This document shows, piece by piece, positions 10,757 to 23,430 of a stretch of DNA of 64,000 nt. The notes below the pieces were generated by a model. It had not been told where the DNA came from, did no database searches, and worked only from the letters and a program-made list of their open reading frames with translations. Location: assembly GCA_002360495.1 (NCBI GenBank), contig DEQO01000196.1:5638-69637 (forward strand). Reading direction: 5' to 3'. Positions within the stretch are counted from its first letter, which is position 1; every line of letters begins with the position of its first letter. A program made the translations under genes and the position numbers. Source of the stretch: Flavobacteriales bacterium UBA3364 (GTDB lineage: Bacteria; Bacteroidota; Bacteroidia; Flavobacteriales_F; PHOS-HE28).

Positions 10757-13700
10757 TCAATCCTGCCCTCTCTGGAACATGACCCTCGGCAACACAACCT
10801 CAATATGCCTCTTCTTCTCTTCCTCGTACCACTCCACCAGGTAGCCCACTGAACCACCGTTCACCCGATAGCCGCGCTCCGCTAAGCGCTCGATCACTTC
10901 GGTCTTGAACTTGCGGGAGAAGAGCACCACGGGACCATCGTTCGTTCCCAAGCCAGGCGCTGGGCCGTTCGCAAAGTCGATGCTGCAAGGCACAAGTCCA
11001 TCGCCCGTAAGCAAGCGCTGGATGCGACCTTGGTTGTAACCGCTTGACCCTAGGTTCACGTCCTTCATACCTGCCACGTAGACCAGCTGCTCCGGCCACG
11101 GATGAAGCATACCGTCGTGGTTGCGCTCGAGTTGTGGGCTGTTGAAGTCCGTAGCGAACGGTTGCAAGGCATGCACGACCAAACGCTCCTTCGCCCTAGT
11201 GCAGGCCACATAGAGCAAGCGCTTGTCCTCCGCTCGTTCCATGGGCTGATCATCGAGCAGCACGAAGACGTTGTCGAATTCGCGCCCTTTTGCCTTGTGC
11301 ATCGTGCTTACCATCACGGTCCGCTCCTCGCCGCGCACGGCATCGCTGATGCGGATCTCCCGCAAGAACGCCGCCCATTCACCGGTATCGTATCGCTGTT
11401 GATAGCGTTCATCGAACAGCGCGAACAGGTCGCGCAGGTCGGCGAGCAGCGGCATTTCGCCCATCTCGCTCAGGAACTGCTCCCGCACCTTCAGCCACAA
11501 CTCCTTGGGCACAACACCCGCTTGCGGGAACTCGGCCCGAAGCAGCTGCATGAACCGGCGCAGTTCGCGTAGTCTTCCGGTCTCGAAGCCATCAGAACCT
11601 CCCACATACCGGGCCTTTACGCCGCGTTCCATCAGCATGGATGCGGCCATCAGCGCTTCACTGTTGGTGCGCGTGAGCAAAGCGGTCGTGCCCGGATAGG
11701 AGCGACCGATCAGGTCTTCCACAAGCCCTGATGTATGGAAGCCGCCCGTGTAGGTGATCACCCGTTGGAGACCCACATTGTCTTCATGGGCCGCCATGTG
11801 CTCCCCCGCTTTGATGCGGCCAGGAATGCCCTCTACTAGATGGTTGGTCAGATCGACCAGAGTGGCCTTGCTACGGTAGTTCGTGAGCAGGCTGTGGCTG
11901 GTTGCATTGAAGGTGCCTCGGAAGGCGGCCATGAACTCCGGCGATGCACCGCGCCACGCATAAATGTTCTGGTCATCGTCGCCCACGGCGATGATGCGAG
12001 GGGATTCGGCCACCTTGCCAATGGCCAGGATCAAGCGCCACTGGTCCGCATCCACATCCTGGAACTCGTCCAACATGATCACGCTCTTGTTCGCGATCAT
12101 CGAAAGGTCCGTCTCCTGCTTCTCGATCGCATCGATGGCACGGCCGATGACCGTTTCGGACTTCTCCAGGTCGCCCAGCTGGCCAGTGAGCTCGAAGCAC
12201 AGGCTGTGGAATGTGGTGACCTTGATGAGCCCGCGATACTCGGGCACCAGCGTATGGATGCGACTGCGCAACTCAAGGGCGGCGGCGCGCGAATAGGTCA
12301 GCATCAGGAACTGCTCGGGCTTCACATCCTCCAGTAGCAGCAGGTTGGCCGCCTTGTGGACCAGCACACGCGTCTTTCCGCTTCCCGGACCGGCGGCGAC
12401 CAGGATATGCTGCGACTTGTCCTGCACCACGGCCTGCTGTGAGGTGTCCAGGTCACCCACCAGCTGCCGGAAGCGCTCAGCACTGATCGACCGCGTGATC
12501 TCCGTACGCCGTTGGGGGAAATACCTGCGGATGAAGGCCTCGTGGTCCAGCTTGAAGTAGTCGTCAACGTAGCTCAGGGCCGCCTCCACGCTTTCGCTGC
12601 GCTTGCGGGCATACTCGCCCACCATGTGTATCTGTTCCGTGCGGTTGCGGTAGTGCAGGTCCAGGTGGGCATAGTCGTCCCGGGTAAAACGTTTTCGGTT
12701 ATCCTCCTCCAGTCGGTCCACGTTCAGGCGCTGGTAGATCACCATGAAGCCATCCTCCAGGTTGATGACCTTGCCCTCGTGCAGGTAGAGCAGCGCTTTC
12801 TCCACCGCGCGCAGGTCCTGCTCCTGAGCGAAAAGCCCTTCCCTCAACTTGTCGCGCAGGCCGACCATGGAAAAGGGCACGGGCATTTCTTCCTTGCGCT
12901 CCTGCTGGCTTTGCTGGGCGGTGGTGGCCAGGTCCTGCAAATGGTCCAGGCACGCGATGGCGAGCGTGTGGCGCTCCTCCATCTCGCGGCGCATGTCATC
13001 TGGATCGGAGCGTGGGGTGATCCGGTAAGTCTGCTCCGTCCTGGCCACGCGCGCGGTGCGGATGAAGCCCCGCCGCTTCCAATAGTTGAGAAGCCCGTGT
13101 ACATCGGCGGGTTGACTGTCGACACCCGCGTCAATGGCAGCCTGGTTGAGGGCCCGCAAGCTGGTTGTAAAGGGTCCCGTGCCAAGCTGGGTGAGCAGCA
13201 CCTTCTCAAGACTCATCAGAGACTTCAACCGTGCGATCGACCCCACCCTTGGCCGTAGGTCAACGAAGGCGGTGAGGTCCTCATGGTCGTCCAGCACCTT
13301 CAACTCTCGCAGTAGTTGCACCGTGCGCATCACCTGGCGCAGCTCCATACCGAGTTGCTCCGCCATTTCGTCCAACTTGGTCTCATCGTGCTTGATGATG
13401 CGCTGCAGCACCCGTGCACAATCTTCCTTCTGCTTGGCCGTGAGTACAGCACTGCCATGCACCAACCGCAAGGCGCTTTCCAGGTCTTTCGTCAGCAGGC
13501 TGGTGGCGAACACCTGCGGACTGTTCAGCGTGCGCTTCAAGTAGCCCCGTTCCTCCAGAGCGGCAAGCGAGGCGGTCACCTTGTTCTGCAGGTCCTTGAT
13601 CTCCCGGTCCCAGCCGGCTGCCGTGGCCAGTTCCAACGCCGACTTGCTCACCCGGTCGCGGAAGCGCGTCATGCGCTTGATGGCACGCCAGATCTGATCG

Positions 13701-22780: not shown

Positions 22781-23430
22781 GGCAGCTCGAGCGTTGGGGC
22801 CACATCCTGTGCGGCCAAATCACCTACCGTCATGGGCGGGTAGCTTTTCACCGGGGAGAAGATGTCGTGCCGCTCCGCCGCGGCGAAGAGCTCGCCTTCG
22901 GTCTTCCACGAAGAGGCCTGCGTGAGCACATCCAAACGGAAATCACGCCGCTGAAACTTGCCCTTGCCCAGGTAGCCCCATTCGGCGAAGGTCATCGGCT
23001 GGCCCTCGTGCGTGAGCATGGTGAGAGCGTCGCCATGTACCAGGTTCTGGGCCAGCACATGCGAGGCGGCGTGGTAGAGGTCGTCGGTCTCTTCCAGCTG
23101 CAAGTACTCCGCAAAGACCTCCAGCATGTTGGCCTTGCACTCGGCGATGTTGTCCGTGAGCAGTTCGATGCCGTAGGTACACATGAGCCCGAGCAGGGCA
23201 TAGTGCCGCTTCTCGAACTCGTTCTTCCCGTACTTCAGTTCCACCGCGGCGAGCTTGCGTTGCAGGATTCGCACGAGGAAGTTGCCGCTGCCGCAGGCCG
23301 GCTCCAGAAAGCGCGAGTCGATGCGCTCGGTCTCGTCCTTCACGAGGTCGAGCATGGCCTCCACCATCCAATCGGGGGTGAAGACCTCGCCGTGGTCGGC
23401 TACGCGTTGTTTGGATTTGATGAGGGACAT
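22777..23430 (-). CDS. methyltransferase-like protein with SAM-binding half only (no NPPY motif)
   Basis: GEVFTPDWMVEAMLDL (motif X), FLEPACGSGNFLV (motif I), YGIELLTDNIAECKANM, LVHGDAL. I found no [ND]PP[YFW]. Its stop overlaps the MTase ATG (ATGA at 22777-22780). Confidence 0.65.
   Translation of the reverse strand: MSLIKSKQRVADHGEVFTPDWMVEAMLDLVKDETERIDSRFLEPACGSGNFLVRILQRKLAAVELKYGKNEFEKRHYALLGLMCTYGIELLTDNIAECKANMLEVFAEYLQLEETDDLYHAASHVLAQNLVHGDALTMLTHEGQPMTFAEWGYLGKGKFQRRDFRLDVLTQASSWKTEGELFAAAERHDIFSPVKSYPPMTVGDLAAQDVAPTLELP

What the first reader, a model, noticed from the sequence alone, without database searches (positions are those of the whole stretch)
10757..23430. 12.7 kb single-strand defence super-operon combining modification-dependent, modification-blocked and helicase-nuclease modules
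- Six genes lie on the minus strand with ATGA or 8-nt overlaps at three junctions: 22777-22780, 21185-21192 and 17698-17701.
- The only non-overlapping junctions are 45 nt (18604-18648, upstream of the DUF4238 gene) and 210 nt (15626-15835, upstream of the giant helicase).
- Gene order is: MTase-like half-protein, m6A MTase, T5orf172-helicase, DUF4238, GmrSD, exonuclease-RecQ-UvrD.
- Each family is individually known from defence contexts. I do not recognise this six-gene combination as any named system (it is not BREX, DISARM, Gabija, Hachiman or Zorya by component list).
- Pairing an R-M-like module with a type IV enzyme would cover both unmodified and hypermodified invaders.
Basis: partly seen in the sequence, partly recalled or inferred. 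Interest (0 to 1): 0.75.

Follow-up and report, generated by a model that had tools for sequence, protein, structure and literature searches.

The report
Stacked defence island, not one operon-system
The six co-oriented genes are real, but they are a pile-up of separately mobile, mostly known anti-phage modules next to a widespread giant helicase gene. They are not one new six-gene system.

Summary
**Observation.** It is confirmed. Six minus-strand ORFs lie at the stated coordinates, with ATGA, ATGAATAA and ATGA overlaps.

**Interpretation.** The reading as one new system is not supported.

- **Genes 1-3.** They are a DrdVI-family restriction-modification cassette: M1 half-methylase, M2 Eco57I-type m6A methylase, and a GIY-YIG/T5orf172 nuclease fused to an SF2 translocase. 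Their identity to REBASE DrdVI on plasmid pDrdVI is 69%, 55% and 77%.
- **Portability of the trio.** It recurs at 55-87% identity in 115 loci from at least 15 phyla and IMG/VR viral contigs, and on plasmids. Nucleotide homology starts at the M1 ATG and stops at the R stop codon. No locus with enough downstream sequence (0/63 genomic) and none of the 35 viral loci carries the other three genes.
- **DUF4238.** This family is a reported one-gene anti-T7 defence. It behaves as a promiscuous 3' add-on: it lies after DrdVI-type helicases, after HTH-reverse-transcriptase pairs, or alone.
- **GmrSD.** It is a standalone type IV enzyme.
- **The "210-nt gap".** It holds a dead 5' stub of a UvrD gene that is intact in a related contig.
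- **The giant helicase.** It belongs to a large family of about 1,600 aa, mostly from Bacteroidota. In five of five close relatives it sits downstream of different restriction cassettes.

**Verdict.** This is a defence-island hotspot of modest interest.

The parts
22777..23430 (-). M1-like subunit (217 aa). It is the N-terminal half of a gamma-class N6-adenine MTase: motif X 'GEVFTP', motif I 'EPACGSGNFL' and motif III-like 'HGDAL', but no NPPY. It is the first gene of the DrdVI-type cassette.
   Evidence: - Pfam MmeI_Mtase and N6_Mtase partial hits, and PADLOC MTase_II N-terminal hits.
- 69% identity to the small 'DNA methyltransferase' of pDrdVI, and 63-80% in about 60 genomic loci.
- Homology to the other loci starts at its ATG.
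21185..22780 (-). M2 subunit (531 aa). It is a complete Eco57I-family m6A MTase: motif X 'DEVFTPP', motif I 'DPCTKSGVFL' and motif IV 'GNPPYQ'. It carries a divergent C-terminal target-recognition region.
   Evidence: - Pfam Eco57I, E = 1.4e-33.
- PADLOC MTase_II, E = 1.6e-48.
- 55% identity to M2.DrdVI overall: 64-90% over aa 1-250 but 24-36% over aa 300-450.
18649..21192 (-). R/translocase subunit (847 aa). It has an N-terminal T5orf172 (GIY-YIG superfamily) nuclease domain and an SF2 helicase-like ATPase (GKT; DEYH; SGTP; QAAFRVQS).
   Evidence: - Pfam T5orf172 and ResIII.
- PADLOC REase_MTase_IIG profile positions 180-800.
- 77% identity to DrdVI on pDrdVI.
- 81-87% identity in 80 loci from many phyla.
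18604..18648 (-). 45-nt spacer. It marks the 3' boundary of the portable DrdVI-type cassette.
   Evidence: Nucleotide homology to 80 DrdVI-type loci ends at window 18649-18660.
17698..18603 (-). DUF4238 protein (301 aa). It belongs to a single-gene anti-phage family and here is an add-on cassette downstream of the R-M trio.
   Evidence: - Pfam DUF4238, E = 1.9e-15 over 279 of 281 profile positions.
- Lowest GC of the set: 51% GC, GC3 0.56.
- The family's anti-T7 activity is reported in PMC9122126.
15836..17701 (-). GmrSD-family type IV (modification-dependent) restriction endonuclease (621 aa). It has a DUF262 domain with 'DGQQR' and a DUF1524 His-Me finger. It overlaps DUF4238 by ATGA.
   Evidence: - Pfam GmrSD_N, E = 2.9e-36, and GmrSD_C, E = 3.4e-25.
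- PADLOC mREase_IV, E = 1.3e-88.
- 95% aa identity to the GmrSD of L016.
15661..15823 (-). Dead 5' stub (about 54 codons) of a UvrD-family helicase gene. The start codon is lost (ATGACG to ACTAAG) and an in-frame TAG interrupts '...AGVGKTKTLM*NILHLIFEQ'. Homology to the intact gene ends near 15661.
   Evidence: - Sequence reading.
- 86-87% nt identity to L016, where the gene is intact at 784 aa.
- Homologous stubs lie upstream of the giant helicase in L123 and L124.
10757..15574 (-). Giant helicase (1605 aa from GTG 15574; 1622 aa if TTG 15625 is used). Its parts are:
- a probable DEDD-exonuclease-like N-terminus;
- a RecQ-type SF2 helicase;
- a winged-helix-rich linker;
- a UvrD-type SF1 helicase;
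- an unassigned C-terminal stretch of about 130 aa.
   Evidence: - Pfam DEAD, Helicase_C, UvrD-helicase and UvrD_C; NCBIfam recQ_fam.
- RNase_T is only sub-threshold.
- The family is large, about 1,600 aa long and mostly from Bacteroidota.
- Gene-caller start.
- Neighbourhoods of relatives.

Best explanation
The 12.7-kb stretch is a defence island built by stepwise accretion of independently mobile units. It lies in a chromosomal variable region of a Bacteroidota-like genome. It is not a single system.

**Unit 1 (23430-18649): a DrdVI-family, NTP-dependent restriction-modification cassette.**
- *Inferred from the family:* M1 and M2 together methylate one adenine in a short asymmetric site. For DrdVI itself the site is GCAGCC. 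Here it is probably different, because the recognition region of M2 is swapped.
- *Inferred by analogy:* the third protein, a GIY-YIG/T5orf172 nuclease fused to an SF2 translocase, cuts unmethylated invading DNA after ATP-driven translocation. This resembles type ISP and type III enzymes.

**Unit 2 (18603-17698): a DUF4238 gene.**
- The family gives anti-T7 defence as a single gene.
- It behaves as a small cassette that lands at the 3' end of other defence operons.

**Unit 3 (17701-15836): a GmrSD type IV enzyme.**
- Enzymes of this family cut DNA carrying modified cytosines (established knowledge of the GmrSD family).
- It arrived together with DUF4238 and a UvrD-family helicase gene. Only a dead 5' stub of that gene remains (about 15823-15661).

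**Unit 4 (15574-10757): a giant exonuclease-like/RecQ/UvrD helicase.**
- It is a separate, widespread single-gene unit.
- In this lineage it marks the downstream edge of a hotspot where restriction cassettes are exchanged.

The genes may well be read through as one or two transcripts, and together they cover unmodified and hypermodified DNA. That is additive layering, not obligate cooperation.
For: **The trio is the DrdVI system**
- pDrdVI of Deinococcus wulumuqiensis NEB479 carries the same three genes in the same order. Identities are 69%, 55% and 77%.
- That plasmid encodes M1-2.DrdVI, which methylates GCAGCC (6mA, listed as 'IIG'), and the MTase genes were cloned (PMC6430315).
- DrdVI is described as 'a fused translocase and REase' with a GIY-YIG domain (PMC4996451).

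**The trio moves on its own**
- It lies on plasmids of Sphingopyxis, Rhizobium, Acuticoccus and Mycolicibacterium with unrelated downstream genes.
- It is present in 80 genomic loci from at least 15 phyla at 81-87% helicase identity.
- Of the 63 genomic loci with at least 1.2 kb of downstream sequence, none has DUF4238, the giant helicase or the L016-type UvrD.
- Across all 80 genomic loci only one weak GmrSD match was found: L064, 23% identity, upstream of the trio.
- None of the 35 IMG/VR loci carries them either.
- Nucleotide homology begins at the M1 ATG (23431) and ends at the R stop codon (18649-18660).
- Other loci carry unrelated inserts inside the trio: YhcG/DUF1016 nuclease, and ImmA plus DUF4411.

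**DUF4238 is a movable add-on**
- Close homologues (59-85% identity) lie after a DrdVI-type helicase and are then followed by GmrSD+UvrD (L016), by Mrr (JGI contig) or by nothing (L102-104).
- Others lie after an HTH plus reverse transcriptase pair (L099-101, L105/106).
- One stands alone (L017/18).
- A single DUF4238 protein gives strong T7 resistance (PMC9122126).

**GmrSD is autonomous**
- The closest plasmid homologues (56-61% identity) are solitary, and three of the four examined lie beside type I R-M genes.

**The junction with the giant helicase is a scar**
- Window 18681-15661 matches L016 at 87% nt identity, ending 160 nt into an intact 784-aa UvrD gene.
- The window copy has lost its ATG and carries a TAG.

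**The giant helicase is its own unit**
- At least 7,999 proteins match at E <= 1e-100, and the best 120 listed are about 1,600 aa long, mostly from Bacteroidota.
- In relatives at 93%, 87%, 76% and 57% identity it lies co-oriented behind different restriction genes: McrBC, type IIG, type ISP-like and type I.
- Its downstream flanks are not conserved.
- On proteobacterial plasmids it is solitary.

**Composition is mosaic**
- GC3 is 0.84, 0.69, 0.86, 0.56, 0.65 and 0.79 for genes 1 to 6.
Against: - Three start/stop overlaps, a 45-nt spacer and the lack of detectable terminators are compatible with co-transcription of genes 1-5. Co-regulation therefore cannot be excluded.
- DUF4238 follows a DrdVI-type helicase in four diverged instances: the window, L016 (only about 30 nt of helicase visible), the JGI contig and L102-104. 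This is more than expected for a purely random neighbour.
- In two of those instances DUF4238 is followed within 0-4 nt by a type IV-like nuclease (GmrSD or Mrr).
- The giant helicase lies downstream of restriction genes in five of five close relatives, which could reflect function rather than a hotspot.
- No transcript, methylome or phage-challenge data exist for this locus.
- The mechanisms of DrdVI cleavage, of DUF4238 and of the giant helicase are inferred, not shown.
Confidence: 0.8

Rival explanations
1. One reading: the six genes form one integrated, co-transcribed defence system. Its R-M, DUF4238, type IV and helicase-nuclease parts depend on each other.
For: - The genes are co-oriented with ATGA or 8-nt overlaps and no predicted terminators between them.
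- The identical arrangement is found in a second sample of the same organism.
Against: - The trio occurs without the other three genes in 0/63 genomic loci with downstream sequence, 0/35 viral loci and several plasmid loci.
- ORF-exact homology boundaries define the trio as a cassette.
- A dead UvrD stub separates gene 5 from gene 6.
- Each remaining gene has its own distribution.
- The only other copies of the six-gene order come from the same organism, with identical proteins.
Confidence: 0.03
2. A partial composite: in a sub-lineage of DrdVI-type systems, DUF4238 has become a functional accessory of the R-M enzyme. It might act as a sensor or abortive back-up, optionally paired with a type IV nuclease (GmrSD or Mrr) encoded directly behind it. 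Genes 1-5 would then form a real four- or five-gene unit.
For: - DUF4238 sits 0-45 nt behind a DrdVI-type helicase in four diverged cases. DUF4238 identity is 74-85% and the helicase is about 88% identical in L102.
- It is followed immediately by GmrSD (ATGA overlap, window and L016) or by Mrr (3-nt gap, JGI contig).
Against: - The same DUF4238 clade also sits behind HTH-RT pairs and alone.
- In L102-104 no nuclease follows it.
- More than 100 DrdVI-type loci lack it.
- A DUF4238 protein works as a single gene in E. coli (PMC9122126).
- The four cases may share descent: window and L016 are 87% identical at the nucleotide level.
Confidence: 0.1
3. The giant exonuclease-like/RecQ/UvrD helicase is a generic partner of whichever restriction module lies upstream. 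It might degrade or process DNA ends made by restriction, as RecBCD does, or repair self-inflicted breaks. Its linkage to the cassette array would then be functional.
For: - In the window and in relatives at 93%, 87%, 76% and 57% identity, the gene is co-oriented and directly downstream of restriction genes of five different kinds.
- Both helicase cores carry intact Walker A and DExx motifs.
Against: - More distant full-length relatives on plasmids are solitary, and only one of the seven with annotated neighbours lies beside an R-M system.
- The junction here is a deletion scar, not a designed overlap.
- No PADLOC system model fits beyond domain-level DpdF, PsyrT and GajB hits.
- The five Bacteroidota cases may be one inherited hotspot.
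Confidence: 0.12

Closest known systems
DrdVI restriction-modification system (REBASE; Deinococcus wulumuqiensis NEB479 plasmid pDrdVI; M1.DrdVI, M2.DrdVI, DrdVI)
   Same: - Same three genes in the same order, with overlapping junctions.
- 69%, 55% and 77% aa identity.
- Same domain content: half-MTase, Eco57I-family m6A MTase, and GIY-YIG/T5orf172 plus translocase.
   Different: - The M2 region aa 300-450 is only 24-36% identical. The recognition site is therefore probably not GCAGCC.
- The window copy sits in a chromosome and has extra genes appended downstream.
Type ISP restriction enzymes (LlaGI, LlaBIII)
   Same: - Same logic (from established knowledge): nuclease, SF2 translocase, gamma-class m6A MTase and TRD acting on asymmetric sites.
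- A fused nuclease-helicase-MTase form of this family exists. PADLOC profile PDLC03626 (1359 aa) is covered by both gene 3 and gene 2, and Enterococcus plasmids carry fused genes.
   Different: - Here the parts are split into three polypeptides.
- The nuclease is GIY-YIG/T5orf172 rather than Mrr/PD-(D/E)xK.
- No Type_ISP_C domain was found.
- There is no detectable sequence similarity to any solved structure.
DnmA-YeeB-YeeC cluster (Bacillus subtilis, Vibrio crassostreae)
   Same: An MmeI/Eco57I-like m6A MTase encoded with an SF2 helicase and a T5orf172 protein in a conserved cluster found in defence islands (PMC9973331).
   Different: - There the helicase and T5orf172 are separate proteins, and no M1 half-subunit is described.
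- The B. subtilis copy showed no restriction or anti-phage activity.
- Direct homology to the window proteins was not tested.
DUF4238 single-gene anti-phage system from a P2-like prophage hotspot (Rousset et al. 2022; named Rst_DUF4238 in DefenseFinder, from memory)
   Same: Full-length DUF4238 domain. The family is reported to protect against T7 as a single gene (PMC9122126).
   Different: - No hit to any PADLOC model and no tblastn hit in the phage collection. It is a distant family member.
- Here it is appended to an R-M operon rather than sitting in a prophage hotspot.
GmrSD-family type IV restriction enzymes (such as Eco94GmrSD, BrxU, SspE)
   Same: - DUF262 plus DUF1524 architecture.
- Strong match to PADLOC mREase_IV, E = 1.3e-88.
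- The closest homologues are solitary and lie in or near R-M loci.
   Different: - Specificity is unknown.
- In this lineage it is translationally coupled to an upstream DUF4238 gene.
- It was formerly followed by a UvrD-family helicase (L016).
Gabija (GajA/GajB), Dpd (DpdF), PsyrTA (PsyrT)
   Same: Domain-level similarity of the giant protein to GajB (UvrD part) and to DpdF and PsyrT (RecQ part).
   Different: - None of the ten proteins scanned matched GajA, any other Dpd component or PsyrA.
- The matches cover single domains of a 1605-aa fusion.

Membership tests
DrdVI-type R-M (REBASE 'type IIG' with separate M1, M2 and translocase-REase) | Three adjacent co-oriented genes in the order small M1, M2, R | tested here: met
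   window; pDrdVI; about 100 loci with the same order.
DrdVI-type R-M (REBASE 'type IIG' with separate M1, M2 and translocase-REase) | R protein is a GIY-YIG/T5orf172 nuclease domain fused to an SF2 translocase | tested here: met
   - Pfam T5orf172, E = 1.6e-7, and ResIII, E = 3.4e-7.
- GKT and DEYH motifs in the sequence.
- Description of DrdVI in PMC4996451.
DrdVI-type R-M (REBASE 'type IIG' with separate M1, M2 and translocase-REase) | Sequence homology of all three proteins to M1.DrdVI, M2.DrdVI and DrdVI | tested here: met
   69%, 55% and 77% identity over the full length, by tblastn against pDrdVI.
DrdVI-type R-M (REBASE 'type IIG' with separate M1, M2 and translocase-REase) | Site-specific m6A methylation by M1+M2, and restriction of unmethylated DNA | not testable with these tools
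   - Methylation is shown only for D. wulumuqiensis (PMC6430315).
- Restriction activity of the family is not documented in the papers read.
Type ISP restriction enzymes | Single polypeptide: Mrr-like nuclease, SF2 helicase, coupler, MTase, TRD | tested here: not met
   - Three polypeptides and a GIY-YIG-type nuclease.
- No Type_ISP_C domain.
- No PDB sequence match, including to solved type ISP enzymes.
GmrSD type IV restriction endonuclease | N-terminal DUF262 (GmrSD_N) and C-terminal DUF1524 (GmrSD_C) in one protein | tested here: met
   - Pfam E = 2.9e-36 and 3.4e-25.
- PADLOC mREase_IV, E = 1.3e-88, full length.
- 'DGQQR' and the His-Me finger residues are visible.
GmrSD type IV restriction endonuclease | Cleavage dependent on modified (hmC or glucosyl-hmC) DNA | not testable with these tools
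   Inferred from the family only.
DUF4238 single-gene defence (Rousset 2022) | Protein consists of a full-length DUF4238 domain | tested here: met
   Pfam PF14022, E = 1.9e-15, residues 6-286 on profile positions 1-279 of 281.
DUF4238 single-gene defence (Rousset 2022) | Acts autonomously as a single gene | tested here: inconclusive
   - A 75%-identical homologue stands alone (L017/18).
- Most close homologues are appended to R-M or HTH-RT operons.
- No PADLOC model hit.
Gabija | GajB (UvrD-like) paired with a GajA OLD-family ATPase-nuclease | tested here: not met
   Only domain-level GajB hits to the UvrD part of the 1605-aa protein. No GajA hit among the ten proteins scanned.
Dpd (7-deazaguanine DNA modification) system | DpdF together with DpdA/B/C and further Dpd proteins | tested here: not met
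   Only DpdF-like hits to the RecQ part. No other Dpd components among the ten proteins scanned. NCBIfam DpdF scores 222 bits against a cut-off of 550.
BREX / DISARM / Zorya / Hachiman | Signature proteins (PglZ/BrxC; DrmA/B; ZorA/B; HamA) | tested here: not met
   No PADLOC hits to these families for any of the ten proteins in and around the region.

The most novel reading that the evidence does not exclude
In a Bacteroidota lineage, the giant exonuclease-like/RecQ/UvrD helicase and the short UvrD stub in front of it form the fixed downstream anchor of a defence-cassette exchange hotspot.
- Different restriction modules are swapped in upstream: McrBC, type IIG, type ISP-like, type I, or DrdVI+DUF4238+GmrSD.
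- The swapping is possibly by homologous recombination through the UvrD stub.
- The helicase may work with whatever restriction module sits there, by processing restriction-generated DNA ends.
Probability: 0.15. Interest if true: 0.6.

Novelty: new member of a known kind. Interest (0 to 1): 0.3.

Why it matters
**As framed.** A new six-gene system would have been notable. The evidence shows instead ordinary defence-island stacking of catalogued or family-level-known modules.

**What remains useful**
1. A clean, ORF-exact definition of the DrdVI-type three-gene cassette.
   - Its translocase-nuclease is unusually conserved: 81-87% identity across at least 15 phyla, on plasmids and in viral contigs.
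   - No solved structure or published mechanism was found.
2. A worked example of how islands grow: cassettes are appended to or inserted into R-M operons, and a dead gene stub marks the joint.
3. A lead that a very common but unstudied 1,600-aa helicase of Bacteroidota sits at the edge of a restriction-cassette hotspot.

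Tried and rejected
- **Structure of DUF4238.** AlphaFold2 on a 9-sequence alignment gave mean pLDDT 39 and pTM 0.22. The model was unusable, so no fold search was run.
- **Solved structures.** PDB sequence searches for the helicase, M2 and DUF4238, and a 10-sequence profile of the helicase, gave nothing significant. 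Kinship with type ISP or type III enzymes could not be shown.
- **Promoters and terminators.**
  - The sigma-70 and terminator scans were at chance level: 3 promoter-like sites against 3.8 expected, and 9 terminator-like sites against 11.8.
  - The Bacteroidetes-type promoter pattern TTTG-N17-23-TAnnTTTG had no match in the window.
  - Neither result says anything about transcription units.
- **More DUF4238 contexts.**
  - The metagenome scan with the DUF4238 alignment added only one close relative, L106, in the same context as L105.
  - tblastn of DUF4238 against phages gave no match, and against plasmids only 23-25% identity hits.
- **Single frameshifted methylase.** I considered whether genes 1 and 2 are one frameshifted MTase gene. 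I rejected this. Both carry their own motif X and motif I. Gene 2 is complete with NPPY. The split is conserved in about 100 loci at 40-80% identity.
- **Giant helicase as an inserted mobile element.** I considered whether it had inserted into the UvrD gene. This does not fit simply. L124 shares the same stub-helicase junction while carrying McrBC upstream.
- **Naming the giant helicase.** Gabija, Dpd and PsyrTA were rejected as names, because partner genes are lacking.

Full report
**1. The observation**

- The junctions read ATGA (22777-22780), ATGAATAA (21185-21192) and ATGA (17698-17701), and there is a 45-nt spacer at 18604-18648.
- Profile searches reproduce five of the six family calls and, for the sixth protein, its helicase parts:

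| Protein | Size | Family call |
|---|---|---|
| 1 | 217 aa | N-terminal half of a gamma-class adenine MTase: motifs X and I, no NPPY |
| 2 | 531 aa | Eco57I-family m6A MTase with NPPY |
| 3 | 847 aa | T5orf172 (GIY-YIG superfamily) domain fused to an SF2/ResIII ATPase |
| 4 | 301 aa | DUF4238 |
| 5 | 621 aa | GmrSD_N plus GmrSD_C |
| 6 | 1622 aa | RecQ-type helicase followed by a UvrD-type helicase |

- The N-terminal exonuclease assignment of protein 6 rests on a sub-threshold RNase_T hit (E = 0.019) and on DxE and GHN..D motifs read by eye.

Two corrections are needed.
- Gene callers on the source contig start the giant gene at GTG 15574, giving 1605 aa.
- The '210-nt gap' is not empty (section 5).

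**2. Genes 1-3 are a known, portable cassette**

- tblastn of the helicase against plasmids found the same three-gene order with unrelated genes downstream. The hosts were Sphingopyxis, Rhizobium, Acuticoccus, Deinococcus and, at 43% identity, Mycolicibacterium.
- The Deinococcus record is plasmid pDrdVI of D. wulumuqiensis NEB479.
  - Its genome announcement assigns 'M1-2.DrdVI' to that plasmid, with motif GCAGCC (6mA, type IIG) and MTase genes that were cloned and expressed (PMC6430315).
  - The window proteins are 69%, 55% and 77% identical to these.
- A scan of one genome per species found at least 574 relatives of the helicase. The best 80 are 81-87% identical and come from Cyanobacteria, Nitrospirota, Chloroflexota, Acidobacteriota, Planctomycetota, Verrucomicrobiota, Actinomycetota, Bacillota, Bacteroidota and several proteobacterial classes.
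- tblastn with all six window proteins gave these results:
  - The trio is present wherever upstream sequence exists.
  - Of the 63 loci with at least 1.2 kb downstream, none has DUF4238, the giant helicase or the L016-type UvrD.
  - Only one of the 80 loci has a distant GmrSD, and that one lies upstream.
- The same holds for 35 IMG/VR viral contigs at 55-89% identity.
- Nucleotide homology between the window and these loci starts at the M1 start codon (23431) and stops at the R stop codon (18649-18660). The mobile unit is therefore exactly the three ORFs.
- M2 is 64-90% identical to M2.DrdVI over its catalytic half but only 24-36% over residues 300-450. This is the usual signature of a swapped recognition domain, so the target site here probably differs from GCAGCC.
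- M1 is not a frameshift product. Both M1 and M2 carry their own motifs X and I, and the split is conserved in about 100 loci.

**3. DUF4238 is a movable add-on**

Only 12 close homologues were found in the 5.8-billion-protein collection. Their contexts fall into three classes.
- **Behind a DrdVI-type helicase:**
  - the window;
  - L016, where the contig begins within the last ~10 codons of the helicase;
  - a JGI contig with the full trio, then DUF4238, then an Mrr-type nuclease;
  - L102-104, with a helicase 88% identical, a 30-nt gap, and no nuclease afterwards.
- **Behind an HTH protein plus a reverse transcriptase of about 290 aa:** L099-101 and L105/106.
- **Alone:** in a Flavobacteriales MAG, L017/18.

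Further points:
- A DUF4238 protein alone gives strong T7 resistance in E. coli (PMC9122126).
- Other DrdVI-type loci carry different inserts inside the trio: a YhcG/DUF1016 nuclease in L021, and ImmA-like peptidase plus DUF4411 in L068. This operon is therefore a common landing site for small cassettes.
- DUF4238 has the lowest GC of the set: 51% GC with GC3 0.56, against GC3 0.84-0.86 for M1 and R.

**4. GmrSD is an ordinary type IV enzyme**

- It matches PADLOC's mREase_IV over its full length (E = 1.3e-88).
- Its closest plasmid homologues (56-61% identity) are solitary genes. Three of the four examined lie beside type I R-M genes, and none has DUF4238 or the giant helicase nearby.

**5. 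The scar between gene 5 and gene 6**

- The minus strand of 15626-15835 reads '...LNPEQRAAVLSEEKRLLVLAAAGVGKTKTLM*NILHLIFEQ...'. This is the N-terminus and Walker A motif of a UvrD-family helicase.
- Contig L016 carries DUF4238 (85% identity), GmrSD (95%) and an intact 784-aa UvrD gene.
  - Window 18681-15661 aligns to it at 87% nt identity.
  - The homology stops 160 nt into that gene.
- In the window the ATG has become AAG, and a CAG has become TAG.
- DUF4238-GmrSD-UvrD therefore arrived as a block, and the UvrD gene is now dead.

**6. The giant helicase is a separate unit at a hotspot**

- At least 7,999 proteins match at E <= 1e-100. The best 120 listed are all about 1,600 aa long, and those with names come mostly from Flavobacteriales and other Bacteroidota.
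- The window itself carries T9SS genes and housekeeping genes, so it is chromosomal and Bacteroidota-like.
- Relatives show different neighbourhoods upstream of the helicase:

| Locus | Identity | Genes upstream of the helicase |
|---|---|---|
| L123 | 93% | kinase-ATPase, McrBC, 83-aa UvrD stub, DUF488 |
| L124 | 87% | type IIG enzyme, McrBC, 50-aa UvrD stub |
| L125 | 76% | SNF2/PLD protein, type ISP-like enzyme, several small genes |
| L126 | 57% | type I R-M system |

- In all five cases, the window included, the helicase is co-oriented at the 3' end of a different restriction array. The downstream flanks are unrelated.
- The window and L124 share the same stub-helicase junction although their upstream cassettes differ. 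This suggests the stub predates the latest cassette exchange and may have served as a homology arm. That step is inference.
- More distant full-length relatives on proteobacterial and other plasmids are solitary. Only one of the seven with annotated neighbours lies beside an R-M system; the eighth region fetched had no annotation.

**7. How it most likely works**

- *Shown:* homology, gene order, distribution, and the scar.
- *Inferred from the families:*
  - M1+M2 methylate an asymmetric site, and the GIY-YIG-translocase cuts unmethylated DNA after ATP-driven movement. This works like type ISP or type III enzymes. A fused nuclease-helicase-MTase form of the family exists.
  - GmrSD cuts hypermodified DNA.
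  - DUF4238 acts on its own by an unknown mechanism.
  - The giant helicase is an active dual-motor DNA enzyme of unknown role.

**8. Comparison and novelty**

- The trio is a member of the DrdVI family. All testable defining features are met.
- It is not a type ISP enzyme: it is split, it has a different nuclease, and it has no detectable similarity to solved structures.
- The DnmA-YeeB-YeeC cluster is a looser analogue (PMC9973331).
- No BREX, DISARM, Gabija, Dpd or PsyrTA partner genes are present.
- The finding is therefore a new instance of known kinds arranged as a defence island.
- Two leads are worth noting:
  - the very high cross-phylum conservation of the DrdVI-type cassette;
  - the recurrent position of the giant helicase behind variable restriction cassettes.

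**9. What led nowhere**

- The DUF4238 structure model was unusable (pLDDT 39).
- Promoter and terminator scans were at chance level.
- The metagenome and phage searches for DUF4238 added almost nothing.

Noticed in passing
window 15661-15823 (-); L123:8655-8906; L124:9830-9982; L016:2859-5213: - A dead 5' stub of a UvrD-family helicase gene lies directly upstream of the giant helicase in the window.
- Homologous stubs of 83 aa and 50 aa lie in the same place in two related contigs that carry McrBC instead of GmrSD.
- The gene is intact (784 aa) after GmrSD in L016.
- The window and L124 share the stub-helicase breakpoint.
- The stub may be a homology arm for cassette exchange.
   Followed up: partly
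L019-L098 and L133-L167 (matches to window 18649-23430): - The DrdVI-type translocase-nuclease is 81-87% identical across at least 15 bacterial phyla.
- It also occurs in 35 IMG/VR viral contigs and on small plasmids.
- Homology is bounded exactly by the first and last codons of the three-gene cassette, with no conserved flanks or terminal repeats.
- How so sharply delimited a cassette moves is unexplained.
   Followed up: partly
L021:6769-8049; L068:6774-8416: - Some DrdVI-type loci carry extra genes between M1 and M2.
- L021 has a YhcG/DUF1016 PD-(D/E)xK nuclease.
- L068 has an ImmA/IrrE-like peptidase plus DUF4411.
- Several other loci (L022, L059, L071, L073) show gaps of similar size that were not examined.
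   Followed up: partly
L099:2752-4760; L100; L101:2608-4671; L105/L106; compare L001:4255-6432: - Close DUF4238 homologues lie directly after an HTH protein and a reverse transcriptase of about 290 aa.
- A Pseudosulfitobacter plasmid has the same HTH-RT pair followed by a TIR protein.
- DUF4238 may therefore be an interchangeable effector of an RT-based defence system.
   Followed up: no
window 21185-22780 (-), protein residues ~300-450: The M2 methylase is 64-90% identical to M2.DrdVI in its catalytic half but only 24-36% in this stretch. This is probably a swapped target-recognition domain, so the specificity is probably new.
   Followed up: partly
window 15689-15717 (-): - The nonsense change that kills the UvrD stub (CAGCGG to TAGAAT) also creates a -10-like TAGAAT, 17 nt after TAGGCA. 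This is the only sigma-70-like site on this strand near the giant helicase start.
- The total number of such sites is at chance level, and the host is probably a Bacteroidota with other promoter rules.
   Followed up: no
window 23753-31772 (-): - Upstream of the cassette lie two large TPR proteins (941 aa and 919 aa, with weak FxSxx-COOH-system TPR hits), a 543-aa protein with no family, and a WYL-domain protein (30873-31772).
- All are co-oriented and sit in the same low-GC stretch.
- They may form a further defence-related module.
   Followed up: no
window 1-5300 and 33000-37900: Two GC-rich stretches (65-68% against about 59% elsewhere) carry long overlapping ORFs on both strands. The ORFs tested (3216-5303, 36205-37839) have no Pfam hits. 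Their origin is unknown.
   Followed up: no
L002:4090-5997 (Sphingopyxis plasmid): On one plasmid a DUF262 (GmrSD-like) gene lies upstream of the DrdVI-type trio, separated from it by a RelE/HigA pair. This is another independent juxtaposition of a type IV-like enzyme with this R-M family.
   Followed up: no
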